Positions 852 through 57,934 of a stretch of 64,000 nucleotides of DNA are shown in pieces. Location of the stretch: assembly GCA_026706025.1 (NCBI GenBank), contig JAPOZO010000052.1:48337-112336 (forward strand), given 5' to 3'. Numbering within the stretch: position 1 is the first letter of the stretch; every line of letters begins with the position of its first letter. Source of the DNA: Candidatus Poribacteria bacterium. Lineage in GTDB: Bacteria; Poribacteria; WGA-4E; WGA-3G. The notes under the pieces were generated by a model that did no database searches, was not told the DNA's origin, and saw only the letters and a list, made by a program, of their open reading frames with translations. The position numbers and the translations under genes were made by a program.

Positions 852-2240
852 TTGTTACAACAGTGGAAACCTGATCCAACTTTTTATCCATCCCCTAAGA
901 TGGCGATTGAGGCACCTATTGAAGATGTTGCTTATGTCGCTGCGCCGAGAGATGATGACAAGCCCGACGCTATGTGTGTGGTTGACCTCAATCCAGCGTC
1001 CGATACTTATGGCGAGATTGTTCATAAACTGGAGCTCGGTGTTCGCGACGAAATCCACCACTTCGGTTGGAACGCTTGTAGTGCAGCACTCTGCCCCTAC
1101 GCACCACACCCTTATATAGAACGGCGTTACCTCGTTGTGCCAGCACTGCGCGGTTCCCATATCTATATCCTTGACGTGAAAGAGGACCCGAAGGCACCGA
1201 AACTCATTAAAACTTTAGATGCCAATGAAGTTGAATCACGATCAGGATATACCCGTCCGCATACAGTACACTGCGGTCCTGAAGGCATCTACATTAGTGC
1301 TTTGGCTTCAGCCGGTTCAGAAGAAGGTCCTGGCGGGATATTCCTTATGGATCACTATAACTTCAATATCTTGGGGCAGTGGGAAGTAGAACGCGGCTCT
1401 CAATCCCTGTCTTACGATTTCTGGTGGCACTTGGGTTATGATGTCGCTGTCACCAGTGAGTGGGGCACGCCAGCAATGATTGAAAACGGTGTAAGCCTTG
1501 AAGATTTGGGTGCCCGCAAATTCGGACATAAAATCCATATCTGGGATATCCGACATCGCAAGAATATCCAGACCTTAGATTTGGGCGATGACTATCAAAT
1601 GATTCTGGAATTACGTCCCGCGCACGACCCAACGAAGGCGCATGGGTTCGTCAATGCCGTGTTGAATATGACTGACCTCTCCAGTTCTATCTGGACATGG
1701 TATAAAGATGGAGACAATTGGGACATCAAAAAGATTATTGATATTCCGGCACAAGTTCCTGAAAATCCAGATGATTTGCCACCGGCTTTGAAGGATATCG
1801 GGATGATTCCTCCGCTTGTCACTGACCATATCCTCTCGTTAGATGACCGATTCCTATATGTCTCTTGTTGGGGGACCGGAGAGATGCTGCAATACGATGT
1901 ATCTGACCCGCTTAATCCGAAGCACACAGGCACCCTCAAGATAGGCGGTATTACCAAATCGCATCCGCACCCGGCTGCTGGACCTGTCAGTGGCGGTCCG
2001 CAGATGGTTGAATTGAGTCGGGATGGCAAGCGTCTCTACTTCACTAATTCTCTCTACGTTGCATGGGATAATCAGTTCTATCCGGATGGCGCAAATGGAT
2101 GGATGGTGAAGGCGGATGTCAACCCCGATGGTGGTTTTGAATTGGATCCTGACTTCTTCGTCGACTTCGGTGATAGCCGCGCGCATCAGATTCGGTTGCA
2201 AGGTGGCGATAGTTCTTCGGATACTTTTTGTTATCCGTAG
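852..2240 (+). CDS. Selenium-binding protein (SBP56) family / methanethiol oxidase-like
   Basis: Aligns along its full length with eukaryotic SELENBP1 (HHxGWNxCSS, LDDRFLYxSxW, GGPQMxxLSxDGKRLYxTxSLYxAWDxQFYPD). TTG start preceded by AAGGAG. Confidence 0.9.
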   Translation: MLQQWKPDPTFYPSPKMAIEAPIEDVAYVAAPRDDDKPDAMCVVDLNPASDTYGEIVHKLELGVRDEIHHFGWNACSAALCPYAPHPYIERRYLVVPALRGSHIYILDVKEDPKAPKLIKTLDANEVESRSGYTRPHTVHCGPEGIYISALASAGSEEGPGGIFLMDHYNFNILGQWEVERGSQSLSYDFWWHLGYDVAVTSEWGTPAMIENGVSLEDLGARKFGHKIHIWDIRHRKNIQTLDLGDDYQMILELRPAHDPTKAHGFVNAVLNMTDLSSSIWTWYKDGDNWDIKKIIDIPAQVPENPDDLPPALKDIGMIPPLVTDHILSLDDRFLYVSCWGTGEMLQYDVSDPLNPKHTGTLKIGGITKSHPHPAAGPVSGGPQMVELSRDGKRLYFTNSLYVAWDNQFYPDGANGWMVKADVNPDGGFELDPDFFVDFGDSRAHQIRLQGGDSSSDTFCYP

Positions 2241-2248
2241 GCATTTCG

Positions 2249-2315
2249 TAGGGGTTGGGAATGTAATACAAGGAACGGATTTAGTCTATTCCCAGACTAA
2301 ATCCCCCAACCCCTA
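2249..2315. repeat. Nested stem-loop (TAGGGGTTGGG...CCCAACCCCTA enclosing GGATTTAGTCT/AGACTAAATCC)
   Basis: Perfect 11-bp outer and 11-bp inner inverted repeats read directly from the sequence. Shares the CGTAGG/GGTTGGG motif with other intergenic hairpins (family E). Confidence 0.7.
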
Positions 2316-2362
2316 TTACTATAAAAAATATTTGACGTTTTTATATCCAGAAAGGCATTTTT

Positions 2363-3004
2363 ATGGATACCATTTCATGGTGGGGCATGCTTGGTCTCGG
2401 CGCATTTCACGGTATTAATCCAGGGATGGGTTGGCTTTTTGCTGTTGCTTTAGGCATGCAGGAAAAACGGAGAAGCGCCGTTATCGGTGCGCTCTTTCCG
2501 ATGGCACTTGGACACGCGCTATCCATTGCCGTTGTCGTATTCGTTATCGCCTTAGCACAGCGACAGCTGCCGGAGGGTGTGCTTCGCATTGCTTGTGCAA
2601 CTGTGTTGTTTGGTTTTGGCGTGTACAAATTTTTTAGTGCTCGACATCCGAAATGGGTCGGTATGCGTGTTAACTTCAAGGACTTAACGATCTGGTCCTT
2701 TCTGATGGCTTCCGCGCACGGTGCAGGTTTGATGCTGGCACCGCTTTTGTTACGGATGCCTGCTGCTGAGGCTTCAGGGCACATGCACCACGCACCCGCA
2801 AGCATGACGGATAACACAGTGATGTTACTGTCTGCCGTTGGGGTACATACCCTCAGTTTTTTTCTCGTGATGGGGGTTGTGGCGGTTATCGTCTATGAGG
2901 TGGTAGGACTCGCGTTGCTCCGCAAGGCGTGGTTTAATCTGGATCTGCTGTGGTCTATCGCTTTGATGATTGCTGGTATTGTTACCCTTTTCTTGAAGCA
3001 TTAG
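2363..3004 (+). CDS. Polytopic membrane protein, possible HupE/UreJ-like metal transporter
   Basis: About 6 predicted TM segments. Internally repeated FHGxNPG / SAHGAG histidine motifs and a His-rich loop (SGHMHHAP). Family assignment is tentative. Confidence 0.3.
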   Translation: MDTISWWGMLGLGAFHGINPGMGWLFAVALGMQEKRRSAVIGALFPMALGHALSIAVVVFVIALAQRQLPEGVLRIACATVLFGFGVYKFFSARHPKWVGMRVNFKDLTIWSFLMASAHGAGLMLAPLLLRMPAAEASGHMHHAPASMTDNTVMLLSAVGVHTLSFFLVMGVVAVIVYEVVGLALLRKAWFNLDLLWSIALMIAGIVTLFLKH

Positions 3005-3207
3005 AAGAAACTGCGTGTTTTTCGTTTGGGACGTTATATTTAGAGAGGCTCACTCTTCATTTTGCTTTATTTTTTTTCTCAAAAATCACAATTGCGCTGG
3101 TTGAATCTCCAAAAGCTGCAGATGGTATAACAATCTCGCAGAGTCGCCAACCTTCGCTTCCTTCGCGATTAAGCGTCATTTCAAGGGCCGGAATTGATCG
3201 GGAAACA

Positions 3208-3240
3208 AACCCTAACCCTTTCTGTTTGAGGGTTAGGGTT
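3208..3240. terminator. Bidirectional hairpin between convergent genes
   Basis: AACCCTAACCCT-ttctgtttg-AGGGTTAGGGTT perfect 12-bp stem followed by TTGT. Lies between the + gene ending at 3004 and the - gene ending at 3292. Confidence 0.5.
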
Positions 3241-3291
3241 TTGTATTCGTATTTAACCATTCAATGCCTCGCTTTCTTGTTTTGTTAACCG

Positions 3292-3879
3292 TTATATGCC
3301 TTCTTGATTCACCACAAGTTCTGTCCATGCCTGATTAATCGCTGCTTGGACATGGTTAGTTTCCACAAACGGAATTCCTAACTTAAAACATTCCGCTTGG
3401 ATCTCACGACTTTCCTTCTGATACCGGATAATTAGATTCCCTAATTCATAGTCTGAGAGAGATGTTGTCCAATGATCTATTCGGGTATATGTCCGTATTT
3501 CAGTGATTTTTGCCTCAACATTGACATCCACGTAACCCAAAAACACGCACTTAAAGCCTTCTTTATGAAGAACAGAGGCGGTTTTGGGGGATATATGATA
3601 CCCTTCTATGACAAAATTCAAACCTTCATATTTTGTATGTCGTGCCAATGCTTGGGTAAATGTTGAAAGTTTTTCACAAACGATTCGCGGGTTTGACGTA
3701 AAATGCGTGATATCAAGTTGCGGGAACGCGTCGTGCATTGAAGAGACGATTGCGTCCAAAGGGAAAATTGACGCTCCAAGTTTGTCTCGCAACTTTTTTG
3801 AAAGGCTTGACTTTCCAGATTGGGGTACACCACCGATAATAAAACAACACTGGTTTATTGCAGACATACATTCTTCCAT
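3292..3879 (-). CDS. P-loop kinase-like protein (chloramphenicol-phosphotransferase-like/AAA fold)
   Basis: N-terminal Walker A motif IIGGVPQSGKSSL. Small size and overall pattern resemble CPT/zeta-toxin-like kinases. Low GC. Confidence 0.4.
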   Translation of the reverse strand: MEECMSAINQCCFIIGGVPQSGKSSLSKKLRDKLGASIFPLDAIVSSMHDAFPQLDITHFTSNPRIVCEKLSTFTQALARHTKYEGLNFVIEGYHISPKTASVLHKEGFKCVFLGYVDVNVEAKITEIRTYTRIDHWTTSLSDYELGNLIIRYQKESREIQAECFKLGIPFVETNHVQAAINQAWTELVVNQEGI

Positions 3880-3896
3880 GTGGTATAACTGTCTTG

Positions 3897-4283
3897 TTAA
3901 ACCTTGATTTTATACTTTAGATCATTGGCTTCATCGCCTGTTATACCGCGAAAACCCCAGCAATGCGGTGGTTGCTCTTTTATCGTGATTTCAACATCTA
4001 TCGGGGAAATGGACAGTTGACTTTCTATCTCTTTGAAAAGCGTTTTGATAAGGGATTTTTGGGTTTCCACTTGACGACCTGCCATCATATTGATTTCAAT
4101 GACAGTATACGCATCAGTCCGACCGCCGGGATAGTAGAAATCTTCTTTCGCCATAGGCACAAAGCGGTGTGCTCGCTTGTCCTCTGGCATCCCAAGTACA
4201 GATTGCATACAGTCGTGGATTACGTCTGATAATTGTGCCTTTATCGGATTCAACTTTTCTTTGATGCCGTATACGATGATCAT
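3897..4283 (-). CDS. Tautomerase-family protein
   Basis: About 128 aa with the features of the tautomerase_2 family. 4-bp overlap with the downstream gene suggests an operon. Confidence 0.4.
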   Translation of the reverse strand: MIIVYGIKEKLNPIKAQLSDVIHDCMQSVLGMPEDKRAHRFVPMAKEDFYYPGGRTDAYTVIEINMMAGRQVETQKSLIKTLFKEIESQLSISPIDVEITIKEQPPHCWGFRGITGDEANDLKYKIKV

Positions 4284-4840
4284 GATTTTTCCTTAATCTG
4301 CGTAGGGAGCAACGCAACGCCGTATTTTTCTTGCAATGCGCGCAAGTCCGAAAAGTCGGTGTCTTGCAACATATATCCGAAATGTGAACGCACTTGGTAA
4401 TCCACTGATAGACATCGAACTTGCCGTCCACCAATAGAACCTATAGCATTCAGTTCCGGTTCAGTAATAATCCAATCAATTTCTCCTGGACCGTAGACTG
4501 CGCCCCCATTTTCCATCAGTTCAACCACATGAAAGTCAATTTTTCCGTGTAATTGATGCCCCATCACAAAGTTTCGGTCCGAACGGTCATCGGTATGGAT
4601 GTCAACAAAGCAGCGCGCGGAGAGTGCCTCGGTGAGTATTGCTGAATTTTTCCATGAGATGATAATATCCAAATCTTGGTGCTCCCGAGTGCATTCACCT
4701 AAGAGCGCATCAACACCCCAGCCACCGTCAATCCAGACTTTGATATCGAGCTCATTAAACAGATCAAGAAACCAGTGAACTCTGTCAGAGGTCATAGGGG
4801 AGACGTATTCGCTATCAGTGAGTGCGTTGCTCATTTTCAT
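4280..4840 (-). CDS. Aminoglycoside 2''-nucleotidyltransferase (ANT(2'')/AadB)-like nucleotidyltransferase
   Basis: VWIDGGWGVDALLGECTREHQDLDI aligns with the AadB motif LWIGGGWAIDARLGRVTRKHDDIDL. Similar length (186 aa). Confidence 0.6.
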   Translation of the reverse strand: MKMSNALTDSEYVSPMTSDRVHWFLDLFNELDIKVWIDGGWGVDALLGECTREHQDLDIIISWKNSAILTEALSARCFVDIHTDDRSDRNFVMGHQLHGKIDFHVVELMENGGAVYGPGEIDWIITEPELNAIGSIGGRQVRCLSVDYQVRSHFGYMLQDTDFSDLRALQEKYGVALLPTQIKEKS

Positions 4841-4851
4841 ATCGTCCTTAA

Positions 4852-5328
4852 CTAGGTCTTCAGTTGTTTCTCCAATTTAGACACACGTTCATGAAGTTCC
4901 AACACCAAATTTGCCAAGTTATCGAATGTCTTGGGGTAGAAAGCTTCTGGTGGTTCTTTATCAAACAGAAGTTCCATTTTCTCGCAAAAGCTTCGATCTT
5001 TAAGAATAGTTTTGGCCTTCTTTTCAACATTACTACGACTACGAAGGACAGGGTTCAACACCTTGGAAGCTATGAATTCAGCAGCTTTTCGACGATCCTC
5101 ATCTGCAAACTCTTCGTGAAGCCACCAACGAATGTGAGAAATTTTCTCTGGATTCAGTACAGTAGCGGAAGCCCCTGTTGTAACGCTGCTATCTTGGCGG
5201 ATTATGTGATTCGTGATACGATTTCGTAGGTCTTTACCATGCCCTACGTATACTAGTTTTTTGCTCTGATCGTAAATTGCATATATGCCAGGTTTTTTCG
5301 GTATTGAACTTGGAGAAAAGTCTATCAT
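4852..5328 (-). CDS. GIY-YIG nuclease domain protein
   Basis: KPGIYAIYD...LVYVGHGKDLRNRITNH contains the GIY..YVG..R..N signature. Confidence 0.6.
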   Translation of the reverse strand: MIDFSPSSIPKKPGIYAIYDQSKKLVYVGHGKDLRNRITNHIIRQDSSVTTGASATVLNPEKISHIRWWLHEEFADEDRRKAAEFIASKVLNPVLRSRSNVEKKAKTILKDRSFCEKMELLFDKEPPEAFYPKTFDNLANLVLELHERVSKLEKQLKT

Positions 5329-5375
5329 AACTTTGGGATCCTCCAGATTTTTAAGTTTGTTTTTTCAATTTTTTG

Positions 5376-5939
5376 TTAAAGGACCTTCAACGCGGCTTCA
5401 TACTTATCTCTAACGAGGTCTTGGATATCCTCTCGTAACTTCTGCCAGCTCCGTTGGAGTTTTGTTTTAACCCATGTTTTACCTTCATCAATTCCCATTC
5501 CGTGGTGAATGTACGCCAAGTATAAAAGCGAAGGAACGTGTTCAATATGGGACATGGCATCGGCATTGGCAAGACATGCTCCCTCTGGTCTCCGATGTTC
5601 AACTGTTACGCTTGCTCGATGTGTTGCGATAGCATCCTTGACAGCTTCCGTTTTTTCTTCTGGATAGTCGAAACGCTTGAGGAGTTTCTCCGCTTCAATT
5701 GGACCATGAATGTGATGATCAGCGTAAAGCGCTTTGTCCTTGATGCTGGCGTAATCGTGTAGTAATGCAGCGAATTCGACGATTTCTGGGTCAGCATCAA
5801 AGCGTGGGGCGAGCTGTTTTGCGTTTTGAATGACTGGTAAGATGTGATGCGTCCAAATATCGTAACCGAAGATGTTGGTATCAGCAGCACAAGCCTGCTC
5901 AACAATCTCCTCAATTCTATTTCTTATGGTTTCAATCAC
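5376..5939 (-). CDS. HD-domain phosphohydrolase
   Basis: H...HD motif (AALLHDYAS) with downstream conserved His and Asp residues. Confidence 0.55.
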   Translation of the reverse strand: MIETIRNRIEEIVEQACAADTNIFGYDIWTHHILPVIQNAKQLAPRFDADPEIVEFAALLHDYASIKDKALYADHHIHGPIEAEKLLKRFDYPEEKTEAVKDAIATHRASVTVEHRRPEGACLANADAMSHIEHVPSLLYLAYIHHGMGIDEGKTWVKTKLQRSWQKLREDIQDLVRDKYEAALKVL

Positions 5940-6114
5940 AGAGCGTTTCCTTTCTTGACATGAGTTTACAACTCATTTCTTAATGCGAAATTACGCAGTT
6001 CGCACAGCTTGTTTCCAACAATATTAAGCATACCATAAAACTGAAGCCGGGACAACTGAAAGTTGTGTCCGATAAAGATCGCGCGCTTGCTTCTAACCAT
6101 CCCGAAACGAAAAC

Positions 6115-6143
6115 TTGCTTTTTTTTGCTGTCTATGCTATAAT
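6115..6143 (+). promoter_or_regulatory. Sigma70-like promoter (TTGCTT-17-TATAAT)
   Basis: -35 at 6115-6120 and -10 at 6138-6143 with a 17-nt spacer, about 110 nt upstream of the 6252 start. Confidence 0.45.
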
Positions 6144-6251
6144 TTCTTTGCTTTACCTAAAACTTTAATCCGTTTTCTCAATATACGGGCTTGAAAGTAA
6201 CGCCCATCCATTAAAATTATCAAGCTGCACCCAGAAGGAGAACCTTATTTA

Positions 6252-7337
6252 ATGAACCTATATGGAGCAACGTATGACAGAATACAACTGCTTCGCCATG
6301 TCGGAGATATATCGCAAATCGCCCATGCAAAGGTATATCAATTGACGGATGGCAATGAAAAAGGTGTTGACGCAATTGATTTCCGAACCGGTAGCGGCTT
6401 AAATTTCACCGTGCTACCGAGCCGTGGGTTAGATGTCGCTTACGCCGAATATCAGGGGATTCCACTCTGTTGGCGTTCGAGTACAGGCGATGTCAATCCG
6501 GCACATTACGAACCTGATGGACTCGGCTGGTTGCGCAGCTTCTACGGCGGTTTACTGACGACTTGTGGGATGCGACAAGTCGGTGTACCCAATGAAGATG
6601 ACGACGAGGCACTCGGACTTCACGGACGGGTATCGCACATCCCTGCAAAAAACGTTTGGGTTGACAGCCGGTGGGAAGGACAACGCTATATGCTATGGGC
6701 GCAGGGCAAGGTTAAAGAAACCGCCGCTTTGGGCGAAAACCTCTCGCGCACTCGCAGGATCTGGACAGAACTCGGATCGCGTACGTTGCACATTGAAGAT
6801 ATTGTTGAAAATTTGGGATACCAAGATTCACCACACATGTACCTTTTCCATATTAATGTCGGATTTCCGATCCTTACCCAAGACAGTGAACTACTTGCGC
6901 CCTCCTCACAAGTCACACCGCGAGATGAACAAGCTGCCACAAACTTAAATAACTATAACCTCTGCGAACCGCCAACCGTCGATTTTCAAGAGCAGGCTTT
7001 CTACCATGAAATGGAACCAGATGTTGATAACCACATCTATGTCGCATTAGTAAACCGTGGGTTCAATAATGGACAAGGCATCGGTGTATCGGTGCGCTAT
7101 CACAAGACGCAGTTTCCAAATTTTGTTCAGTGGAAAATGTGTGGTGAAGGCACTTATGTCTTCGGTTTGGAACCTTCAAACTGCGGTGTAGAAGGCAGGG
7201 CAAAGGAGCGTGAACGCGGCACGTTACAGTATATTGAACCCGGTGGTCGTAGGCACTATGAAGTCGAAATCGGTGTGCTGACTTCCAATGCAGAGATTGA
7301 TGCCCTCCAAGAAAAAATCGCACAAACGCAAAATTGA
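6252..7337 (+). CDS. Conserved hypothetical protein (possibly aldose-1-epimerase-like/DUF4432-like)
   Basis: 361-aa ORF with a good SD (AGAAGGAG). Fold assignment rests on weak recollection only. Confidence 0.3.
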   Translation: MNLYGATYDRIQLLRHVGDISQIAHAKVYQLTDGNEKGVDAIDFRTGSGLNFTVLPSRGLDVAYAEYQGIPLCWRSSTGDVNPAHYEPDGLGWLRSFYGGLLTTCGMRQVGVPNEDDDEALGLHGRVSHIPAKNVWVDSRWEGQRYMLWAQGKVKETAALGENLSRTRRIWTELGSRTLHIEDIVENLGYQDSPHMYLFHINVGFPILTQDSELLAPSSQVTPRDEQAATNLNNYNLCEPPTVDFQEQAFYHEMEPDVDNHIYVALVNRGFNNGQGIGVSVRYHKTQFPNFVQWKMCGEGTYVFGLEPSNCGVEGRAKERERGTLQYIEPGGRRHYEVEIGVLTSNAEIDALQEKIAQTQN

Positions 7338-7396: not shown

Positions 7397-9490
7397 ATGA
7401 AAAAATGTTTGTCTTTACCTCTTATCGCGTTAGCACTTCTCACAATGTGTATATGCGTCGGCTGTGGCGCGAAAGAAGTACCTCCAGCTACGACTTCAGC
7501 AGCTGCCGAATCGGCACCGGTACAGGAATCGCAAGAAATGGACGAGCTGCCTCAATCTGCGGAAGAGGCATCAGAACATGAGTCTGCCGAAGAAGCATCA
7601 GAACATGAATCCGAAGAAGAAACGTCAGAACACGAAACTGACGCGGAACATGAGCCTGCCGAAGAAGCATCAGAACATGAATCCGAAGAGAAAACGGCAG
7701 AACATGAGACTGACGCGGAAACATCGCATGAAACTGAACCTGAAATGGTGGAGATTCCGAACGGTAGTGTGTTACATCTGATTCCAAAACAAACAATAGG
7801 GCTTATCTATTGTCCGAGTTTGCTGGAGTTGGATTATCGGATTAACACACTGGTGACAGACTTGGTCCCAACAGATGAAACCCCAGAAATTCTTGCCGAA
7901 ATCTTAGCAGATGCCTTTGGAGCTGGGTTTGAAAGTCTCGCTGAGTTAGAGGAAATTGGACTTGATTTGAACCAAGACTTTGCGATCTTCACGACCTCTT
8001 TGAATCCGCCGCAACTTTCTGCGACTGTTCATCTAACAGATCCTGCAGCCATGAAACAGGTCATTGATGCTGAAAGTGCAGGAAGTGCCCCGGTTGAATA
8101 TAACGGTGTAACTTATTGGAACGCAAGCGGTGGCGGCGGTAGTTTCGCTATCTTGGACAATACGCTTGTCTTTTCTCAATCCGCTGAAGTGTGCGAAAGT
8201 GCTATTGATACCTATAAGGGAGCCGAACAATCTGTCGCAGCCAACCCAAGCTACACTTCATTTTTCACCGATATTATGGAGGGCGACGCGCAGATCGCAG
8301 CACATTTCAACCTTGAATCCATTGCTCCGCTGCTGACTGCTCCGATTAAGGAAGAATCAGAATCAATGCGCGACGGTCTTGAAAGCGACCCTGCCGCTAT
8401 GGCGTTTGCTCCGTTCCTTACGTCTATGTTTGATTCAGTCGTAAATGTAATTGAGCAGTTGGAATCTCTAAGCGCGACGCTTGAAGTGAAGGGGACCGAT
8501 GTACAACTTGCCCCGACCTTAAAATTCAAGAACGATAGCGAAATTCAGCGATCCTTGGCAGAGATGATGCCTGACGAATTGGCAGTTCTCAGCGATCTTC
8601 CAAATCTCGCTTTTGTAAATGGCGCCTTTCAAGGGAATACACAATTACTGCTTGACATGAACATGTTATGGCTAAAAATGTTTTCAGCAAGTGCTCCAGA
8701 GCAGCAAGCGAAATTGGAGGCACTCACCGAGCAGATGACAACTTTCTATAAATCTCTCGCCGATGAGTGGGGGTTCACTGTCAATTTTGGCGATAGCATT
8801 ATCCCGGATTATCTGATCGTCTATGAGATGAAGGATAAACAACTGGCGGAAACTTACATGAATGACATGTTTCTTGAACAACTCCGCAACACAATGCAGA
8901 TCATGCAGGAAATGATTGGAAATATGCCACAATTAGGCATGTACGATGGGGCACATGCTGGTCAACCGCTGATGCACAACGACGTTGAAATAAAAAGTTA
9001 TATCTTCCCCAACTTCGGTTCGGTTTTTGGTGAGATGCCACCTGAAGCTGCTGTAATGATACCTCAGGAATGGCACTGGTACTATGCCTTTCACGAAGAT
9101 CAACTGTTTTTTGCTATCGGTGGTTCTGATCTGCTTAAAGCCGCATTGGATAGGAAAGCTGGAATGGGTGAAAGCCTTTCTGAAAATGCAAGTTACCAGA
9201 AACTGACGGGTACGTTGGGGACAGACAATAACCTGCTTTTGGCTCTTTCCCCGATGACTATGGTTAAAGGTCTCATGCCTATTGTTGCGAAAGCCGACCC
9301 GAATGCTGGCGCAGCCATGCAAATGTTCGCAGGCATGTTTATGAATGTGCCTGAGACTTACAGCATCGGTTTTTCTGCTAAAGTCCAAGAGGATGGCGGA
9401 ATCGGCGCAAACCTGCTTCTCACCCTCGGCGACTTCAAGCAGGCCATCCAAATGATTCTGATGATGCAGAATATGCAACAGATGCAATAG
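7397..9490 (+). CDS. Lipoprotein with acidic tandem-repeat region, unknown function
   Basis: Signal peptide with a Cys-rich lipobox region (LTMCICVGC). Repeats of SAEEASEHES/EEETSEHETDAEHEP are encoded by 66-nt tandem units around 7594-7722. SD GAGGAG. Confidence 0.6.
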   Translation: MKKCLSLPLIALALLTMCICVGCGAKEVPPATTSAAAESAPVQESQEMDELPQSAEEASEHESAEEASEHESEEETSEHETDAEHEPAEEASEHESEEKTAEHETDAETSHETEPEMVEIPNGSVLHLIPKQTIGLIYCPSLLELDYRINTLVTDLVPTDETPEILAEILADAFGAGFESLAELEEIGLDLNQDFAIFTTSLNPPQLSATVHLTDPAAMKQVIDAESAGSAPVEYNGVTYWNASGGGGSFAILDNTLVFSQSAEVCESAIDTYKGAEQSVAANPSYTSFFTDIMEGDAQIAAHFNLESIAPLLTAPIKEESESMRDGLESDPAAMAFAPFLTSMFDSVVNVIEQLESLSATLEVKGTDVQLAPTLKFKNDSEIQRSLAEMMPDELAVLSDLPNLAFVNGAFQGNTQLLLDMNMLWLKMFSASAPEQQAKLEALTEQMTTFYKSLADEWGFTVNFGDSIIPDYLIVYEMKDKQLAETYMNDMFLEQLRNTMQIMQEMIGNMPQLGMYDGAHAGQPLMHNDVEIKSYIFPNFGSVFGEMPPEAAVMIPQEWHWYYAFHEDQLFFAIGGSDLLKAALDRKAGMGESLSENASYQKLTGTLGTDNNLLLALSPMTMVKGLMPIVAKADPNAGAAMQMFAGMFMNVPETYSIGFSAKVQEDGGIGANLLLTLGDFKQAIQMILMMQNMQQMQ

Positions 9491-9503
9491 ATGGATTTCT
9501 AAC

Positions 9504-9538
9504 TCGCCCACAACTCGATTGTGGGCGAATTTTTTTAT
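9504..9538 (+). terminator. Rho-independent terminator
   Basis: GCCCACAA-ctcga-TTGTGGGC stem followed by AATTTTTTTAT immediately after the 9490 stop. Confidence 0.75.
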
Positions 9539-10078
9539 CAGGGTGTCAACTTGTGTTTTCTTTTCTATTAAGTCTTCCGAAAATAGCGGCGAATCACAAA
9601 GAGTTTTATTACGACATTTATATATTTTTATTTTATTGTGAAAAAATATGACCTAACATAACTGATGTTTAAACCCTGATGACTATTGACTTTATATCAA
9701 TTTAAAATTTGACAAAAAATGAGATTTTGATAATATATATTTATAACTTTTGTGAAAATATGAAGTTTGTGAACGTTTCACAACGGATATTTTCCAGCGC
9801 GAATTTGCCACAGAATTTTTTAGAACCTATTCGCATCTGGCATCTTATATTGAACTCACGCTATAATAGGACTTACGCAAAATCAGAGAATTATGCCTAT
9901 GGCGCCGCGGTAGGTGGGGTTAGGAATGCAAATCGCAAATGTAAAGCATTCTGACTGCGAAGCAAAATTTGGTCTCCGTGTGTAGAAAACCAAATGTGGG
10001 TGCGTACACCGCAAAACCGCACCTACCAGGGAATTGCGTAAGCCCTAACTTAATTACCGACTTAAGGGGGAAGAACTG

Positions 10079-47285: not shown

Positions 47286-50200
47286 ATGGAAAATATAGAA
47301 AACACCCTTAAAACCCGCATTGAAAATGATAAGGCACATACCTTTGTCGTCATTGTGCCGACCGATTCCGCACGTTTGCATCGCCAACGCGAATTGGTCA
47401 GTTATCACCCAAACCGCGCAGTTGCCAATTTACGCGTGCATACCAGTGTGGATTTCATCCAAAGATTATACAATCAAGCTGGGTCACCAAAACAACATAT
47501 CTTATCAGGGATCCAACACCTTTGGCTTCACGAAATAGTAGATCCTGACGCTGACAATACCGATACCTACCAATATGATGCCTTTCGTCCAATCCAAAAT
47601 ACTGCCATTCCCGATAGTACACTCTCTCTCATCTTGGACACGATAAATCACCTTAGGGATCAAGGAGAGACTGAACCGAACTTTGTAGAAAATGATCTAA
47701 CCAAGGTAGACCTCGCTCGCATTTATAGCGATCATGAGGCGAAACTTGGAAACCGATGGATAGATGAGAAGGGAAAACACTACTACCTGGCGAACAATTT
47801 CAAAGAAGAGTTCATCAAGAGGGCATTCCCTGGTGCTAACCTTGTTGTTGTTGAAGGTTTCACTTTGATTTCAAAAGCCGATATTAAACTCTTGAGACAC
47901 ATCGCCGAAATATCTGATACAAAGATGTGGTTTCGCACCGACTGTGTTGAAGACAATAAAGCCCTTTATAAAAGCATTATCGACCTCGTTTCACAATTTA
48001 AAGACACGGATGCTTACATTGATACCGACTATGAACGGGATCCCGACCAACATCAACATTTCGCTGAGAATCTGTTCAAAACGGATGTTACCTTGGACCA
48101 GAAAATTGATTTAACAGATAAGATTAAGGTTTTAGAACCAACTGATCGATCCGAAGAGGTGGAACAGATTGCTCATCTAATTCAGAAACAGGTCTTAAGT
48201 GCTGACTGTAAACTGAGTGAGATTTGTGTTGTATGCTACAATATAGGTAATTACCAACACCGAATTGCGGAAGTTTTTCCCACTTATGGCATCCCCTATT
48301 CATTCGTTGAAAGTGTTCCGTTGATGAGGTCAGAGGTTGTCAAAGAAATCTTTTCTCATATTTCACCGCGGCAAGTTCCTCTCGGCAACACCTATGTCTC
48401 TGAGGTTAAATCTAAATTATATATAGAAGCTTTTCATCCCGACGAATTTAAGAATTACATTGACAACTTTCTCGAATCTACGGAAGTCATTTCCAAGATT
48501 TTAAACCCGATGCTGCTGAAAGATGGAAAAATTGTTGGAGGTGAGGTGAACGCATTACAGCAGTTTAAAAAAATAATTAAGGGGTTTTGTGACGTGTTAA
48601 AATCTGAGGAAGATAGGTTATACAAATTTGAAGATTATATTAATAAACTCAGATATATTGCGAAGCATACACACTATCAAAATGGAGCACCGGCAAGCCA
48701 AGAAACCGTTAAGATTTTCCCACTTAGTGAACTCACAAGTTTAGCATATAATAATGAACTCAGAAGTTTAGAATTTGACACCGTCTTTTTAGGTGATTTT
48801 GTAGAGGGTCGGTTTCCAGAAAATTATCGTCCAGACCCGTTGTTACCAGAAACACCTTATCGCAACGAAGAGGAGCAACTCCACGATAATCGGCTCTTGT
48901 TTTATCGGGTACTCAAGTCTTTTCGCGAACGACTCTATATCCTTATACCACAACGTGAGCGCGAAGCAGAACTGATTCCTTCTCCTTTTCTTGGACAATT
49001 AAAAGCAATCGCCGATGTTGAAACTATTAAAGTCGACAATCCTGAACGAGGCAGCATCCCAGGTTTTCTCAGTACATACGGCAACCATGTATGGACAACA
49101 GAGACACTTTCCGATGGAAAATTTCCCGCCAACCTTATGAACATGCGTTCTTTAATAAAGCATGTTGTTAAGGTTGAAAAGAGCCGTGAAAAAACGCACA
49201 AACATCTTGTCTATGAAGGCGTATTAACTCCTGAAACCCTTTCTCCTGAAAGCCGTGCTGGTTTAGAAGAACGGCGGCAACGGACCTATTCTGTTACAGA
49301 ATTAGAAACTTACGCCAAGTGTCCATTTCAGTATTTTGCAGCTGAAATCTTAGAACTCGGTAGTCCAGATGAGGAAGACACTGAAGGCTTATCCAGCCGT
49401 GAAAAAGGTGAGTTGGTTCACGATATTCTTGTAAGATTCTATGACGATCGCCGAGAACAACCCGCTGTTAGCCAATGTGATGAAACAAGTTTTGAAGCGG
49501 CAAAACAACAATTATCTAACATCATAGATGAGATGATAAGTGATACTGACTCGGAAGATCTCTTTCGGAGAGTAGATAAAACACATTTAAAAGTTATGCT
49601 GAATCAATGGCTTACAGTAGAGCGGGGATATGATGTAACTACCATCCCGCGCTACTTTGAAGTCAGCGTTGGTCGTAGGAAAGGGATAATCGATTCAGTC
49701 CTCAGTCGTCCCAAACCTATCTGTATCAGCAATGTAAGTCTCAATGCAAAAATTGATCGCATTGATATAGGCAACGGTGTTTTTAATGTTATTGACTATA
49801 AAACTGGAAGAACATTTGGAGCAAAGGATATTCTTGAGGGGCGGGCTCTCCAATTGCCCATCTATCTTGAAATTGCGAGGCGACTGCTCGGAGACGGATA
49901 CGAAACGGCAGCAGGTTTATATCATAAAGTCAAATTGAACGATTGCAAAATAGAACTTGGTATTGGGAAAGAATCTTGTAGAGGTGAGACGTACATTCTG
50001 GCGCGAAAAACGCAGCAAATGCTGTCAGATGAGACCTTTGATAGCATGATCGCACGTGTAAGTGGTTATCTTGAGCAGTACATTAGTGGAATGAGCAATG
50101 GCAATTTTCCGCTCATTACACGCGTCAAAACGTTTGTAAGGACGAAAAAAGAAGTTGAGGAAGATCGCCTTATAGAGACTGAGGAATACGGTTTTGTAGA

Positions 50201-50324
50201 GACTGAAGCAGATGGTAACAAACCTCTTACCCCTCGCAACAAAACGGCACCCTGTAGTTATTGTGCCTATAAGCGTATCTGCCGTGTCGGCGCGTTCGCT
50301 GAATCAAGCGAATCAGAAGAGTAA
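47286..50324 (+). CDS. AddB/RexB-like inactivated-helicase/PD-(D/E)XK nuclease protein (no AddA partner in window)
   Basis: Degenerate N-terminal P-loop region and a UvrD-C-like DTVFLGDFVEGRFP segment. C-terminal RecB nuclease motifs (GxIDRID, VIDYKTGR) and an AddB-type 4-Cys pattern (YAKCPFQYF ... CSYCAYKRIC). Confidence 0.65.
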   Translation: MENIENTLKTRIENDKAHTFVVIVPTDSARLHRQRELVSYHPNRAVANLRVHTSVDFIQRLYNQAGSPKQHILSGIQHLWLHEIVDPDADNTDTYQYDAFRPIQNTAIPDSTLSLILDTINHLRDQGETEPNFVENDLTKVDLARIYSDHEAKLGNRWIDEKGKHYYLANNFKEEFIKRAFPGANLVVVEGFTLISKADIKLLRHIAEISDTKMWFRTDCVEDNKALYKSIIDLVSQFKDTDAYIDTDYERDPDQHQHFAENLFKTDVTLDQKIDLTDKIKVLEPTDRSEEVEQIAHLIQKQVLSADCKLSEICVVCYNIGNYQHRIAEVFPTYGIPYSFVESVPLMRSEVVKEIFSHISPRQVPLGNTYVSEVKSKLYIEAFHPDEFKNYIDNFLESTEVISKILNPMLLKDGKIVGGEVNALQQFKKIIKGFCDVLKSEEDRLYKFEDYINKLRYIAKHTHYQNGAPASQETVKIFPLSELTSLAYNNELRSLEFDTVFLGDFVEGRFPENYRPDPLLPETPYRNEEEQLHDNRLLFYRVLKSFRERLYILIPQREREAELIPSPFLGQLKAIADVETIKVDNPERGSIPGFLSTYGNHVWTTETLSDGKFPANLMNMRSLIKHVVKVEKSREKTHKHLVYEGVLTPETLSPESRAGLEERRQRTYSVTELETYAKCPFQYFAAEILELGSPDEEDTEGLSSREKGELVHDILVRFYDDRREQPAVSQCDETSFEAAKQQLSNIIDEMISDTDSEDLFRRVDKTHLKVMLNQWLTVERGYDVTTIPRYFEVSVGRRKGIIDSVLSRPKPICISNVSLNAKIDRIDIGNGVFNVIDYKTGRTFGAKDILEGRALQLPIYLEIARRLLGDGYETAAGLYHKVKLNDCKIELGIGKESCRGETYILARKTQQMLSDETFDSMIARVSGYLEQYISGMSNGNFPLITRVKTFVRTKKEVEEDRLIETEEYGFVETEADGNKPLTPRNKTAPCSYCAYKRICRVGAFAESSESEE

Positions 50325-57275: not shown

Positions 57276-57620
57276 TTATGATTCTGAATCGGGCTGCAAC
57301 ACAGCAGAAAGAGTATCTGTAACCCATTGATCAAGATTCTTACCACTTGCTTCGGCCGCCATAGCGATGCCTATATGAACTTCGGGCGGAATGGACAAAG
57401 TCACGTTCCCAGAATAGGGTTTCTGCGGTGGCCTCCCTGATTCTTCGCACATTTCAAGGTAATCCTCCACTGCTTCTTCAAAAGCAGTTCGTAATTCGGC
57501 AACGGAATCGCCGTGAAACCCGACAATATCCCTAATTCCAGCGATTTCGCCAACAAGACAACTGTCCTCAGCACTATATCTAATTTCGGCTATATAGCCT
57601 TTGTATACCATTGTATTCAC
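57276..57620 (-). CDS. hicB: HicB-family antitoxin
   Basis: N-terminal HicB fold (YKGYIAEIRYSAEDSCLVGEIAGIRDIVGFHGDSVAELRTAFEEAVEDYLE) plus a C-terminal RHH-like segment. Overlaps the upstream gene by 4 nt. Confidence 0.7.
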   Translation of the reverse strand: MNTMVYKGYIAEIRYSAEDSCLVGEIAGIRDIVGFHGDSVAELRTAFEEAVEDYLEMCEESGRPPQKPYSGNVTLSIPPEVHIGIAMAAEASGKNLDQWVTDTLSAVLQPDSES

Positions 57621-57934
57621 GGTGTTATTCCTACCTCCTCAAGAAAACGTCGTGCGTTTTGCACTTGGTAAACTTTTGCCTCCTTCTGGCCATGCGGTCG
57701 ATGAAACGTAACGGCAACATTATTCAATTCAAACCGTACTCGCGATCCCCGTCCTTCAGTAAATTTGGCACCAAGGGCCACAAAAAGGGATTCAATACGT
57801 CGCCACCTCAATGTAGCCGGGACCGGCCTCCTGAAAATAGCGTTCAAAGTGTTCTGATGTCGTTTATTCATTTTTGTAAGAAATAATTTTCCATCTCCGT
57901 CCTCGATACATCCGGAGATCAGTTCTACCGGCAC
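57617..57934 (-). CDS. hicA: HicA-family mRNA-interferase toxin (with N-terminal extension)
   Basis: GAKFTEGRGSRVRF...VTFHRPHGQKEAK pattern, resembling HicA GSHxxF...HxPHxxK. Located immediately upstream of hicB. Confidence 0.5.
   Translation of the reverse strand: MPVELISGCIEDGDGKLFLTKMNKRHQNTLNAIFRRPVPATLRWRRIESLFVALGAKFTEGRGSRVRFELNNVAVTFHRPHGQKEAKVYQVQNARRFLEEVGITP

What the first reader, a model, noticed from the sequence alone, without database searches (positions are those of the whole stretch)
3040..6250. Low-GC islet of five small minus-strand accessory genes
Between the hairpin at 3208-3240 and the promoter at 6115-6143, five genes (3292-5939) sit back-to-back on the minus strand. 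By eye they have a GC content of about 40-43%, against about 52-56% for flanking housekeeping genes. They encode a P-loop kinase, a tautomerase, an ANT(2'')-like nucleotidyltransferase, a GIY-YIG nuclease and an HD phosphohydrolase. The composition, the functions and the bracketing structural elements suggest a horizontally acquired islet. No integrase or transposase is present.
Basis: partly seen in the sequence, partly recalled or inferred. Interest (0 to 1): 0.6.

Follow-up and report, generated by a model that had tools for sequence, protein, structure and literature searches.

The report
Hypervariable accessory gene array in Poribacteria
The low-GC cluster is real, but it is one species' version of a small gene array that sponge-symbiont Poribacteria keep between the same two conserved genes and reshuffle gene by gene without any integrase, a known kind of recombination hotspot rather than a freshly imported island.

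Summary
The five minus-strand genes exist as described. The array GC is 42.9% against a window mean of 48.0%. The flanks are 47-51%, not 52-56%.

The window is from Candidatus Poribacteria. In 47 other Poribacteria species that keep both flanking genes, the space between them ranges from 266 bp (an empty site) to 9.9 kb, and the 48 loci show 41 different gene arrangements.

Most of the window's genes are old residents of this site:
- The Lnu-like nucleotidyltransferase is present in 38 of 47 species.
- The HD hydrolase is present in 33 of 47.
- The tautomerase is present in 11 of 47 and DUF4177 in 15 of 47.
- The first three track the species divergence.

Only the P-loop kinase and the GIY-YIG nuclease, the two lowest-GC genes, are lineage-specific. 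The DUF4177 and P-loop segment shows clear lateral exchange: dS to L028 is 0.06-0.19, against about 1.1 for neighbouring genes.

Other species carry toxin-antitoxin pairs, GmrSD, DUF4268 and IS elements at the same site. I found no integrase, attC site, tRNA or flanking repeat.

Verdict: this is an integrase-less, core-flanked hypervariable hotspot, a new member of a known kind. The "horizontally acquired islet" reading is only partly right.

The parts
3005..6109 (.). Variable segment between the conserved membrane-protein gene (2363-3004) and the conserved DUF4432 promoter and gene (6110 onwards).
   Evidence: blastn and tblastn against 80 Poribacteria loci. The interval is 266 bp to 9854 bp in 48 loci, with 41 arrangements.
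3057..3260 (-). DUF4177 gene (67 aa).
   Evidence: Pfam PF13783, E 8.5e-13. Called as a gene in L081-L084. dN/dS 0.26. The allele is shared with L028 and L007 at 91-94% aa, against 62-73% in the nearest species.
3207..3241 (.). Perfect 13-bp inverted repeat (AAACCCTAACCCT ... AGGGTTAGGGTTT) inside codons 6-19 of DUF4177.
   Evidence: the repeat finder pair I7. Folding z -4.1 and -3.6 on the two strands. Present only in the WIN, L028 and L007 allele. Function unexplained.
3292..3879 (-). Small P-loop NMP-kinase-like protein. The ORF is 195 aa; public gene calls start at 3867, giving 191 aa. Lineage-specific cassette.
   Evidence: Walker A motif GGVPQSGKS and an invariant EGYH motif. Weak Pfam hits. 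The AF2 model has pLDDT 86 and matches adenylate, shikimate and gluconate kinases. A profile search finds 1152 representatives of an unnamed family of about 185 aa. Close homologues sit only in this array. GC 40.6%, z -2.3.
3897..4283 (-). Tautomerase_2 protein (128 aa) of the HI1388.1 type. It lacks the canonical N-terminal proline.
   Evidence: Pfam E 5.6e-22. PDB 1mww E 1.5e-43; both proteins start MI(I/T)V. dN/dS 0.05. Present in 11 of 47 species, plus 4 fragments.
4280..4840 (-). Lnu/ANT(2'')-family nucleotidyltransferase (186 aa; public calls give 184 aa). Its stop codon overlaps the tautomerase start codon (ATGA).
   Evidence: PF10706 E 2e-31. LnuD model 90.6 bits against a cut-off of 325. 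PDB LnuA 4fo1 E 2e-18. Present in 38 of 47 species. dN/dS 0.13.
4852..5328 (-). Stand-alone GIY-YIG nuclease (158 aa) with a C-terminal helical extension. Lineage-specific cassette.
   Evidence: Pfam E 6e-7. The AF2 model matches the UvrC N-terminal GIY-YIG domain 1yd6, target-normalised TM 0.7. Only 25 homologues were found, and the next best is 66% identical in the alignment. At this site it occurs only in L022, at 59%. Homologues elsewhere sit in other contexts. GC 40.9%.
5376..5939 (-). HD-domain phosphohydrolase (187 aa, GTG start). First, promoter-proximal gene of the array.
   Evidence: PF01966 E 1.3e-9. Present in 33 of 47 species. dN/dS 0.07. 66-72% identity to homologues in other phyla.
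6023..6073 (-). Conserved promoter-like element for the array: TTGTCC, 17 nt, TGgTATGCT. A palindrome, ACAACTTTCAGTTGT (6052-6066), overlaps the -35 region.
   Evidence: Alignment of 34 HD upstream regions. The palindrome occurs once per locus in 11 species and in the window's own population. Promoter function is inferred.
6115..6143 (+). Promoter-like site of the flanking DUF4432 gene: TTGCTT, 17 nt, TGcTATAAT. It is not part of the islet.
   Evidence: Conserved in L051 (empty site) and L034. It faces the plus-strand gene at 6252.

Best explanation
The region is the window species' configuration of a hypervariable, single-strand gene array. Sponge-symbiont Poribacteria keep this array next to the DUF4432 gene.

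In this clade the array lies between a conserved membrane-protein gene and DUF4432. It appears to be read from one conserved promoter-like element upstream of the HD gene. The order is HD, then variable cassettes, then nucleotidyltransferase, then optionally tautomerase, P-loop kinase and DUF4177. Spacing is very tight: gaps of 11-47 bp or ATGA stop/start overlaps.

The genes are independent modules, not one machine. HD, the nucleotidyltransferase and the tautomerase are old residents, inherited mostly vertically and sometimes lost. Toxin-antitoxin pairs, nucleases, small enzymes and IS elements come and go between and beside them. In the window lineage the additions are the GIY-YIG nuclease and the P-loop kinase. 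The P-loop kinase arrived together with a foreign DUF4177 allele.

Turnover happens by recombination between related Poribacteria genomes, using conserved flanks and shared cassettes as homology, plus gene-sized deletions. It does not involve an integrase or attachment sites.

Shown: the variability, the mosaic ancestry, the deletion scars, and purifying selection on all six genes. Inferred: operon transcription, the recombination mechanism, and the biochemical roles. The roles I infer are small-molecule or nucleotide modification by the nucleotidyltransferase and kinase, DNA cleavage by GIY-YIG, and phosphoester hydrolysis by HD.
For: - Taxon and synteny: 80 Poribacteria loci were fetched through DUF4432. 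48 loci have both anchors, with a variable interval of 266-9854 bp and 41 arrangements.
- Presence counts in 47 other species: nucleotidyltransferase 38, HD 33, DUF4177 15, tautomerase 11, P-loop 1, GIY-YIG 1. None has all six.
- Breakpoints fall at gene borders. The P-loop module 3278-3887 and the GIY-YIG module about 4799-5367 are absent from nearest relatives, and DUF4177 is joined directly to the nucleotidyltransferase in L005 and L012.
- Junctions are mostly ATGA overlaps or short gaps, whichever gene is the neighbour.
- Deletion scars and fragments exist. In L032 the first five DUF433 codons are fused to the nucleotidyltransferase. Fragments of the tautomerase, nucleotidyltransferase and HD occur in 8 loci.
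- Other species' cassettes are DUF433/DUF5615, BrnT/CopG, an Unstab_antitox protein next to an 87-aa RelE-like protein (that assignment is by eye), DUF4268, GmrSD and TnpB.
- Vertical signal: Spearman correlation with DUF4432 identity is 0.48, 0.40 and 0.78 for the nucleotidyltransferase, HD and tautomerase.
- Lateral signal: between the window and L028, dS is 0.06 (DUF4177) and 0.19 (P-loop), against 1.11 (nucleotidyltransferase) and 1.13 (DUF4432). Between the window and L008, dS is 0.12 (membrane gene) and 0.23 (HD), but 0.90 for DUF4177.
- Within the window's subclade, P-loop and GIY-YIG are unique to the window, and they are the two lowest-GC genes.
- dN/dS is 0.05-0.31 for all six genes.
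- The same six-gene array occurs in at least 5 independent metagenome assemblies.
- A conserved promoter-like element lies upstream of HD.
- A deeper clade has the same families in the same order, inverted.
- No tRNA, no Rfam match, no flanking repeats, no PADLOC system.
Against: - Transcription as one unit is not shown. The sigma-70 scan did not score the proposed promoter, and toxin-antitoxin cassettes normally carry their own promoters.
- The donor of the GIY-YIG gene is unknown; the nearest homologue is about 60-66% identical.
- Collinearity, fragments and deletion scars mean much of the variation could be differential loss rather than gain.
- The dS estimate for DUF4177 rests on 67 codons.
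- L028 is cut at the flank limit, so the left end of the shared tract is not seen.
- Species representatives only were compared, so the rate of turnover within a species is unknown. The window's own population shows one arrangement.
Confidence: 0.7

Rival explanations
1. Differential loss only. An ancestral long operon that carried all cassette families has been eroded by independent deletions in each species, with no lateral input.
For: Cassette order is collinear across 48 loci. Fragments of the tautomerase, nucleotidyltransferase and HD exist. L032 carries a deletion scar. Identity of the nucleotidyltransferase, HD and tautomerase tracks the flank.
Against: dS for DUF4177 and P-loop between the window and L028 is 0.06-0.19, where adjacent genes have about 1.1. 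The DUF4177 allele distribution is incongruent with the flanks. The tautomerase and HD of the deep clade (dS 0.8-1.2) are closer to the window's than the saturated DUF4432 is. Order is rearranged in some loci, with HD before the RelE/C5 pair in L027, L039 and L048. IS insertions occur.
Confidence: 0.12
2. One reading: the five or six genes are one recently acquired horizontally transferred islet.
For: Lower GC than the flanks. Empty site in L051. No species shares the full set.
Against: The nucleotidyltransferase, HD and tautomerase are present at this site in most related species and diverge along with the flanks. Different segments have different nearest relatives. There is no integrase, tRNA or direct repeat. 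The proposed boundary elements belong to a gene and to the neighbour's promoter.
Confidence: 0.05
3. The six genes form one co-functional system, for example an anti-phage or nucleotide-modifying pathway that combines nucleotidyltransferase, kinase, HD hydrolase and nuclease.
For: Same strand, near-zero spacing and one upstream promoter-like element. The enzyme types recur in defence systems. The same site holds GmrSD, toxin-antitoxin pairs and a 1035-aa protein in L028 that I judged by eye to be type IIG restriction-methyltransferase-like, not tested against Pfam.
Against: Each gene occurs without the others in many species, and no other species has the set. No PADLOC match beyond generic domains. 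HD homologues in other phyla are never next to a PF10706 gene. P-loop and GIY-YIG joined only in this lineage.
Confidence: 0.08
4. An integron-like cassette array (a cluster of attC sites lacking an integrase).
For: Small, promoterless-looking genes in one orientation downstream of one promoter, with gene-sized presence/absence.
Against: Intergenic gaps are -4 to 47 bp, too short for attC sites, which by my own recollection are roughly 55-140 bp. No conserved inter-cassette repeat. No integrase was seen among the genes examined in the window or in the variable intervals of the loci; most of the window's ORFs were not tested.
Confidence: 0.03

Closest known systems
Hypervariable genomic islands of small ORFs between purF and radC in clostridial CAG-217 (AcrIIA22 loci; PMC8545432)
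   Same: A short region of small genes between two conserved genes. Many arrangements exist (54 among 128 loci there; 41 among 48 here). One or two genes are retained while neighbours turn over. The authors found no integrase, transposase or recombinase and proposed turnover by recombination.
   Different: That case shows turnover among nearly identical strains, with a prophage origin and phage homologues. Here the comparison is between species of a phylum, and no viral relatives were found. The retained genes are an HD hydrolase and a nucleotidyltransferase, not an anti-CRISPR.
Core-gene-flanked defence hotspots (for example Pseudomonas aeruginosa core defence hotspots, PMC10250203) and integrase-less HGT hotspots maintained by homologous recombination in flanking core genes (concept from my own knowledge: Oliveira, Touchon and Rocha 2017)
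   Same: Conserved flanks, variable cargo rich in toxin-antitoxin and nuclease genes, an empty site in some genomes, and lower GC than the core.
   Different: This array is very small (0.3-10 kb). It is single-stranded and operon-like, with ATGA-coupled junctions. The window's own cargo is mostly small enzymes that match no catalogued defence system.
Integron cassette arrays
   Same: One-orientation, gene-sized cassettes downstream of a fixed promoter.
   Different: No attC sites and no IntI. Spacers are too short. Junctions lie at start/stop codons.
Lnu lincosamide and ANT(2'')-Ia aminoglycoside nucleotidyltransferases
   Same: The 4280-4840 protein has the PF10706 domain and aligns over its full length with LnuA and LnuD. 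The GG...DLD motif is present; this is my reading of the sequence.
   Different: Scores are 34-91 bits against curated cut-offs of 300-350 bits. It is a distant family member of unknown substrate, not a resistance gene call.

Membership tests
Classical genomic island (integrase-mediated) | Integrase or recombinase gene in or next to the island | tested here: not met
   None of the six genes is a recombinase. Other species' arrays carry only sporadic IS transposases.
Classical genomic island (integrase-mediated) | Insertion next to a tRNA or tmRNA gene, with flanking direct repeats | tested here: not met
   No tRNA in the 64 kb window. No direct repeat spans the borders. The border inverted repeat is not conserved.
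Classical genomic island (integrase-mediated) | Compositional deviation from the genome | tested here: met
   GC is 42.9% against 48.0%, in the lowest 3.9% of windows. The tetranucleotide z-score is 2.3. The deviation is moderate and not unique in the window.
Core-flanked hypervariable hotspot (integrase-less) | Conserved flanking genes with variable cargo across related genomes, including empty sites | tested here: met
   48 loci, interval 266-9854 bp, 41 arrangements. L051 is empty.
Core-flanked hypervariable hotspot (integrase-less) | Mosaic ancestry or recombination signal across the region | tested here: met
   Segment-wise dS differs up to about 18-fold between adjacent genes. blastn best-match partners change along the array.
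Core-flanked hypervariable hotspot (integrase-less) | Cargo enriched in defence, toxin-antitoxin or selfish genes | tested here: met
   In other species the cargo is DUF433/DUF5615, BrnT/CopG, an antitoxin-like protein beside a RelE-like protein, GmrSD, DUF4268 and TnpB. In the window itself only the GIY-YIG nuclease fits this class.
Integron / attC cassette array | attC recombination sites between cassettes | tested here: not met
   Gaps are -4 to 47 bp, with no shared inter-cassette repeat. No attC covariance model was available to run.
Integron / attC cassette array | IntI integrase with attI and Pc | tested here: not met
   No integrase among the genes examined in the islet, its flanks or the variable intervals of the fetched loci. 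Most of the window's ORFs were not tested. Complete genomes were not searched beyond 10 kb.
Lnu / ANT(2'') resistance nucleotidyltransferases | Score above the curated NCBIfam cut-off of a named resistance enzyme | tested here: not met
   Best is LnuD at 90.6 bits against 325. ANT(2'')-Ia scores 34.3 against 350.
Lnu / ANT(2'') resistance nucleotidyltransferases | PF10706 domain over its full length | tested here: met
   E 2.2e-31, profile positions 5-148 of 149. LnuA 4fo1 E 2e-18.
Known anti-phage defence systems (PADLOC) | Significant match of components to a catalogued system | tested here: not met
   Only generic hits: the Cas3 HD domain at 2e-5, and weak PDC-S14 and Csx3 hits.
Tautomerase superfamily (catalytically canonical) | N-terminal catalytic proline (Pro-1) | tested here: not met
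   The protein starts MIIV, and its closest solved relative HI1388.1 starts MITV. The fold-family match is strong (E 1.5e-43).
Free-standing GIY-YIG homing endonuclease | GIY-YIG catalytic domain | tested here: met
   Pfam E 6e-7. The model matches the UvrC GIY-YIG domain.
Free-standing GIY-YIG homing endonuclease | Appended sequence-specific DNA-binding domain and demonstrated mobility into cognate empty alleles | not testable with these tools
   The C-terminal 60 aa are helical with no recognisable DNA-binding domain. Homologues occupy different genomic contexts, which hints at mobility but is not a test.

The most novel reading that the evidence does not exclude
The Poribacteria array could be a promoter-anchored cassette-exchange platform that works like an integron but without IntI or attC. 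In this reading, gene-sized modules are swapped at start/stop-codon junctions such as ATGA overlaps. The driver would be an unrecognised mechanism, for example microhomology-directed recombination, or breaks made by resident nucleases such as the GIY-YIG protein or toxin nucleases. This would give these sponge symbionts a dedicated locus for sampling accessory genes across species.
Probability: 0.1. Interest if true: 0.65.

Novelty: new member of a known kind. Interest (0 to 1): 0.4.

Why it matters
Poribacteria are uncultivated, abundant sponge symbionts. Their accessory genome is thought to matter for life inside the host, for example through defence, toxin-antitoxin systems and handling of bioactive compounds.

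This locus gives a clean, alignable example of how their gene content turns over without mobile-element machinery. It has a fixed address, about 40 arrangements, visible deletion scars and at least one datable lateral exchange.

It is also a caution for annotation. Low GC and 'resistance-like' domains here do not indicate a recently imported resistance island. The Lnu/ANT-like gene and the HD gene are old residents, and the Lnu/ANT-like gene falls far below the resistance-family cut-offs.

The locus could serve as a marker for strain and species typing and for studying recombination among sponge-symbiont populations.

Tried and rejected
- Flanking repeats: no direct repeat spans the islet. The 12-nt inverted repeat at both borders (3019-3030 and 6102-6113) was checked in 48 loci. 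Its left copy is confined to three species and its right copy is part of the conserved DUF4432 upstream region, so I judged it chance.
- The hairpin as a boundary or repeated element: it lies inside DUF4177, is allele-specific and occurs nowhere else.
- Known RNA families in 2800-6500: none at E<=1.
- tRNA genes in the window: none.
- Defence-system models (PADLOC): only generic domain hits.
- Phage origin: no relatives of the nucleotidyltransferase, GIY-YIG or P-loop genes in IMG/VR by the pattern-based scan. PHROGs hits were weak, apart from a generic HD family.
- HD-nucleotidyltransferase as a conserved functional pair or toxin-antitoxin pair: HD homologues in other phyla are not next to a nucleotidyltransferase. 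At least 9 species have the nucleotidyltransferase without a full-length HD and 4 the reverse (derived). Rejected as an obligate pair.
- Exact look-up of the 186-aa nucleotidyltransferase ORF failed, because public gene calls start two codons later.
- ORF clustering artefacts, corrected with tblastn counts: single linkage merged an 87-aa RelE-like toxin with the nucleotidyltransferase cluster through fused ORFs, and the antisense ORF 2950-3288 displaced DUF4177.
- One literature search call failed on syntax. Two searches found no paper describing this Poribacteria locus.

Full report
**1. What is in the sequence**

Pfam and NCBIfam confirm the domain readings:
- 3292-3879 is a P-loop protein with only weak Zeta_toxin, CPT and 2-phosphoglycerate-kinase similarity.
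- 3897-4283 is Tautomerase_2 (E 5.6e-22).
- 4280-4840 is PF10706 'Aminoglyc_resit' (E 2.2e-31).
- 4852-5328 is GIY-YIG (E 5.9e-7).
- 5376-5939 is HD (E 1.3e-9).

A sixth minus-strand gene was missed: 3057-3260 encodes a 67-aa DUF4177 protein (E 8.5e-13). Public assemblies of the same organism call it as a gene.

The genes are packed with gaps of 47, 11, -4 (an ATGA overlap), 17 and 31 bp.

**2. Composition**

The window is 48.0% GC and the array is 42.9%. Same-size windows have a mean of 48.1% and an SD of 2.6, and 3.9% of them are as low.

The flanking genes are 51.1, 49.0, 48.5 and 46.6% GC, not 52-56%.

Against 55 ORFs of the window (mean GC 48.4%, SD 3.4), the z-scores are:

| Gene | GC z-score |
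|---|---|
| P-loop | -2.3 |
| GIY-YIG | -2.2 |
| Tautomerase | -1.7 |
| HD | -0.9 |
| Nucleotidyltransferase | -0.8 |

The 3-kb tetranucleotide distance has z = 2.3. That is second to a region at 47-50 kb with z = 4.0, which encodes an AddB-like helicase-nuclease. So the deviation is real but moderate, and in this genome low GC is not by itself a sign of import.

**3. The 'bracketing elements'**

The hairpin is real. It spans 3207-3241, has 13-bp perfect arms, and folds with z about -4 on either strand. However, it lies in codons 6-19 of DUF4177. It exists only in the DUF4177 allele shared by the window, L028 and L007; other alleles do not fold. It is not repeated elsewhere.

The site at 6115-6143 reads TTGCTT, 17 nt, TGcTATAAT. 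It faces the plus-strand DUF4432 gene and is conserved even where the array is absent, in L051 and L034. It is therefore the neighbour's promoter.

A different conserved element lies upstream of HD on the minus strand at 6023-6073. It reads TTGTCC, 17 nt, TGgTATGCT, and the palindrome ACAACTTTCAGTTGT overlaps its -35 region. It is conserved in 34 aligned HD upstream regions and occurs once per locus. I take it as the array's promoter. This is an inference, because the consensus scan did not score it.

**4. Where it comes from, and synteny**

Scanning one genome per species with the DUF4432 protein returned 80 loci. All are Candidatus Poribacteria, at 74-98% identity.

In 48 loci, counting the window, the membrane-protein gene and DUF4432 are both present. 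The interval between them ranges from 266 bp (L051, effectively empty) and 628 bp (L034) up to 9854 bp (L028). The window's interval is 3247 bp. In every species the interval is lower in GC (0.39-0.46) than its flanks (0.46-0.51).

Full-length copies among the 47 other species:

| Gene | Full-length | Fragments only |
|---|---|---|
| Nucleotidyltransferase | 38 | 2 |
| HD | 33 | 2 |
| DUF4177 | 15 | 0 |
| Tautomerase | 11 | 4 |
| P-loop | 1 | 0 |
| GIY-YIG | 1 | 0 |

No species has all six genes, and two species have none. There are 41 distinct minus-strand arrangements in the 48 loci.

**5. What else sits at this site**

Other species carry the following at the same address, mostly between the nucleotidyltransferase and HD:
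- DUF433/DUF5615 pairs.
- BrnT/CopG pairs.
- An Unstab_antitox protein next to an 87-aa protein that I read as a RelE-like toxin. That assignment is by eye, not by Pfam.
- DUF4268 and GmrSD.
- A retropepsin-like pair with no Pfam match.
- IS elements. The TnpB type is supported by Pfam; the IS3, IS4 and IS630 assignments are by eye.
- In L028, a 1035-aa protein that I judged by eye to be type IIG restriction-methyltransferase-like.

In a deeper clade, where DUF4432 is 74-81% identical, the membrane gene is not upstream. Yet the same families occur there: DUF4177, tautomerase, nucleotidyltransferase, HD, GIY-YIG, GmrSD, DUF433/DUF5615, BrnA and DUF4268. They are on the plus strand in the mirrored order, ending with DUF4177, then a MetE-like gene, then DUF4432. 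The array is therefore an old, phylum-wide feature.

**6. Modularity**

blastn breakpoints between the window and its relatives fall at gene borders:
- 3278-3887, the P-loop module, is missing from L001, L008 and L009.
- 3261 is joined to 4280 in L005 and L012.
- About 4799-5367, the GIY-YIG module, is missing from nearly all.

Junctions are mostly ATGA overlaps or gaps of 10-50 bp, whichever gene is the neighbour.

L032 keeps the first five codons of DUF433 fused to the nucleotidyltransferase, which is a deletion scar. Fragments of the tautomerase, nucleotidyltransferase and HD show ongoing decay. In one assembly of the window's own species, the nucleotidyltransferase is split into two ORFs (L083).

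**7. Vertical versus lateral history**

Identity of the nucleotidyltransferase, HD and tautomerase to the window correlates with DUF4432 identity (Spearman 0.48, 0.40 and 0.78). DUF4177 does not correlate (0.24, not significant).

Segment-wise dS shows a mosaic:

| Comparison | Gene | dS |
|---|---|---|
| Window vs L028 | DUF4177 | 0.06 |
| Window vs L028 | P-loop | 0.19 |
| Window vs L028 | Nucleotidyltransferase | 1.11 |
| Window vs L028 | DUF4432 | 1.13 |
| Window vs L008 | Membrane gene | 0.12 |
| Window vs L008 | HD | 0.23 |
| Window vs L008 | DUF4432 | 0.31 |
| Window vs L008 | DUF4177 | 0.90 |

So an L028/L007-type DUF4177 allele plus the P-loop gene sits in an otherwise L008-like background.

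In the window's own subclade (L001-L005, L007-L009, L013), every species has a different array, and P-loop and GIY-YIG are unique to the window. These are also the two lowest-GC genes.

Close P-loop homologues are few: 11 in the word-indexed search. Those whose context could be read sit in this same array.

GIY-YIG homologues number 25, and the next best is about 60-66% identical. They occur in other contexts, next to DUF433 or next to DUF6884, a HerA-like ATPase and TGT genes.

All six genes are under purifying selection, with dN/dS of 0.05-0.31. The six-gene arrangement recurs in at least five independent assemblies.

**8. The proteins**

- P-loop protein: the AF2 model has pLDDT 86. It matches adenylate, shikimate and gluconate kinases with TM about 0.55. 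A profile search finds 1152 cluster representatives of an unnamed family of about 185 aa, annotated at best as 'AAA family ATPase' or 'NMP kinase'.
- Tautomerase: it matches H. influenzae HI1388.1 (1mww) at E 1.5e-43. Like that protein, it lacks the canonical Pro-1.
- Nucleotidyltransferase: it aligns with LnuA (4fo1, E 2e-18). It scores 34-91 bits against cut-offs of 300-350, so it is not a resistance-gene call.
- GIY-YIG protein: the model (pLDDT 82) matches the UvrC N-terminal nuclease domain and has extra C-terminal helices.
- HD protein: it has 409 homologues. Members in other phyla are 66-72% identical and sit beside citrate synthase, or beside tRNA_bind and YjbR genes. They are never beside a PF10706 gene. 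The HD-nucleotidyltransferase pairing is therefore Poribacteria-specific and not an obligate pair.

**9. Interpretation**

The best reading (confidence 0.7) is an integrase-less, core-flanked hypervariable hotspot organised as a tight one-strand array. Old residents (HD, nucleotidyltransferase, tautomerase, DUF4177) are kept or lost. Selfish or accessory modules are exchanged by recombination among Poribacteria and removed by gene-sized deletions. In the window lineage the recent additions are the P-loop kinase, which arrived with a foreign DUF4177 allele, and the GIY-YIG nuclease.

Four rivals are addressed in their own section:
- Loss only.
- Acquisition of the islet as a unit.
- A single co-functional system.
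- An integron-like array.

There is no tRNA, no Rfam match, no flanking repeat, no PADLOC system and no viral relative.

**10. Comparison with what is known**

The closest described analogue is the purF-radC hypervariable island of small ORFs in clostridial CAG-217. It has 54 arrangements, no recombinase, and turnover attributed to recombination (PMC8545432). Core-flanked defence hotspots are also close (PMC10250203).

This case differs in four ways. It is conserved at phylum depth. It is operon-like, with start/stop-coupled junctions. It has no detectable phage link. In the window it carries mainly small enzymes.

I did not find a paper describing this Poribacteria locus. That is a limited search, not proof of absence.

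**11. Verdict**

It is a new member of a known kind, of moderate interest (0.4).

The most novel reading not excluded is that the array is a dedicated, integron-like but integrase-free cassette-exchange platform (probability about 0.1).

Noticed in passing
window 47286-50324 (+): This is the lowest-GC long gene of the window (41.4%) and its region is the most tetranucleotide-deviant (z 4.0). It encodes an AddB-like helicase-nuclease (PDDEXK_1, UvrD_C, ADDB_N) and lies between a methionyl-tRNA synthetase gene and a superoxide dismutase gene. It shows that low GC here is not restricted to accessory genes.
   Followed up: partly
window 57276-57934 (-): A HicA toxin / HicB antitoxin pair: 57617-57934 is HicA and 57276-57620 is HicB. 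The two genes overlap by 4 bp and have somewhat low GC (about 46%).
   Followed up: partly
window 3207-3241: The coding-region hairpin is built from two telomere-like GGGTTAGGGTT units. On the plus-strand RNA it is followed by a U-rich run (UUUUGUAUUCGUAUUU). It could therefore act as a terminator for the convergent membrane-protein gene, or as an mRNA 3'-end or translation-control element for DUF4177. It is conserved only in the WIN/L028/L007 allele.
   Followed up: partly
L083 1763-2317: In one metagenome assembly of the window's own species, the nucleotidyltransferase gene is split into 50-aa and 94-aa ORFs while the other five genes are intact. This is either a pseudogene in that population or an assembly error.
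   Followed up: no
window 7397-9490 (+): A DUF3352 lipoprotein-like protein with an acidic tandem-repeat region (…SAEEASEHESEE…) near its N-terminus. It is much more divergent between species (45-93% identity) than its neighbour DUF4432.
   Followed up: no
window 9400-10000: An intergenic stretch with very low GC (33%) between the DUF3352 gene and the next gene at 10079.
   Followed up: no
window 852-3004 (+): An SBP56 selenium-binding-protein homologue (E 3e-179) is followed by a 213-aa multi-pass membrane protein with no Pfam or NCBIfam match. The two are syntenic in 44 or more Poribacteria species. dS values show that this flank is also mosaic between species.
   Followed up: partly
L028 2658-5765 and L029 7378-9177: At the same address, other species carry a 1035-aa protein that I judged by eye to be type IIG restriction-methyltransferase-like (L028), and a full-length GmrSD-type enzyme (L029). 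L007 has a DUF262-like gene disrupted by what looks by eye like an IS630-family element.
   Followed up: partly
L087 4293-9883: A 60%-identical GIY-YIG homologue sits between a DUF6884 gene and genes for a HerA-like DUF87 ATPase and a TGT (tRNA-guanine-transglycosylase-like) protein. This neighbourhood is reminiscent of 7-deazaguanine DNA-modification (Dpd-like) islands.
   Followed up: no
L075 5999-8321: In the deep clade, the inverted array carries a RelE/HigB-like toxin with an HTH antitoxin, a TolB-like beta-propeller protein and a GNAT-like acetyltransferase upstream of DUF4177. These assignments were made by eye from the translations.
   Followed up: no
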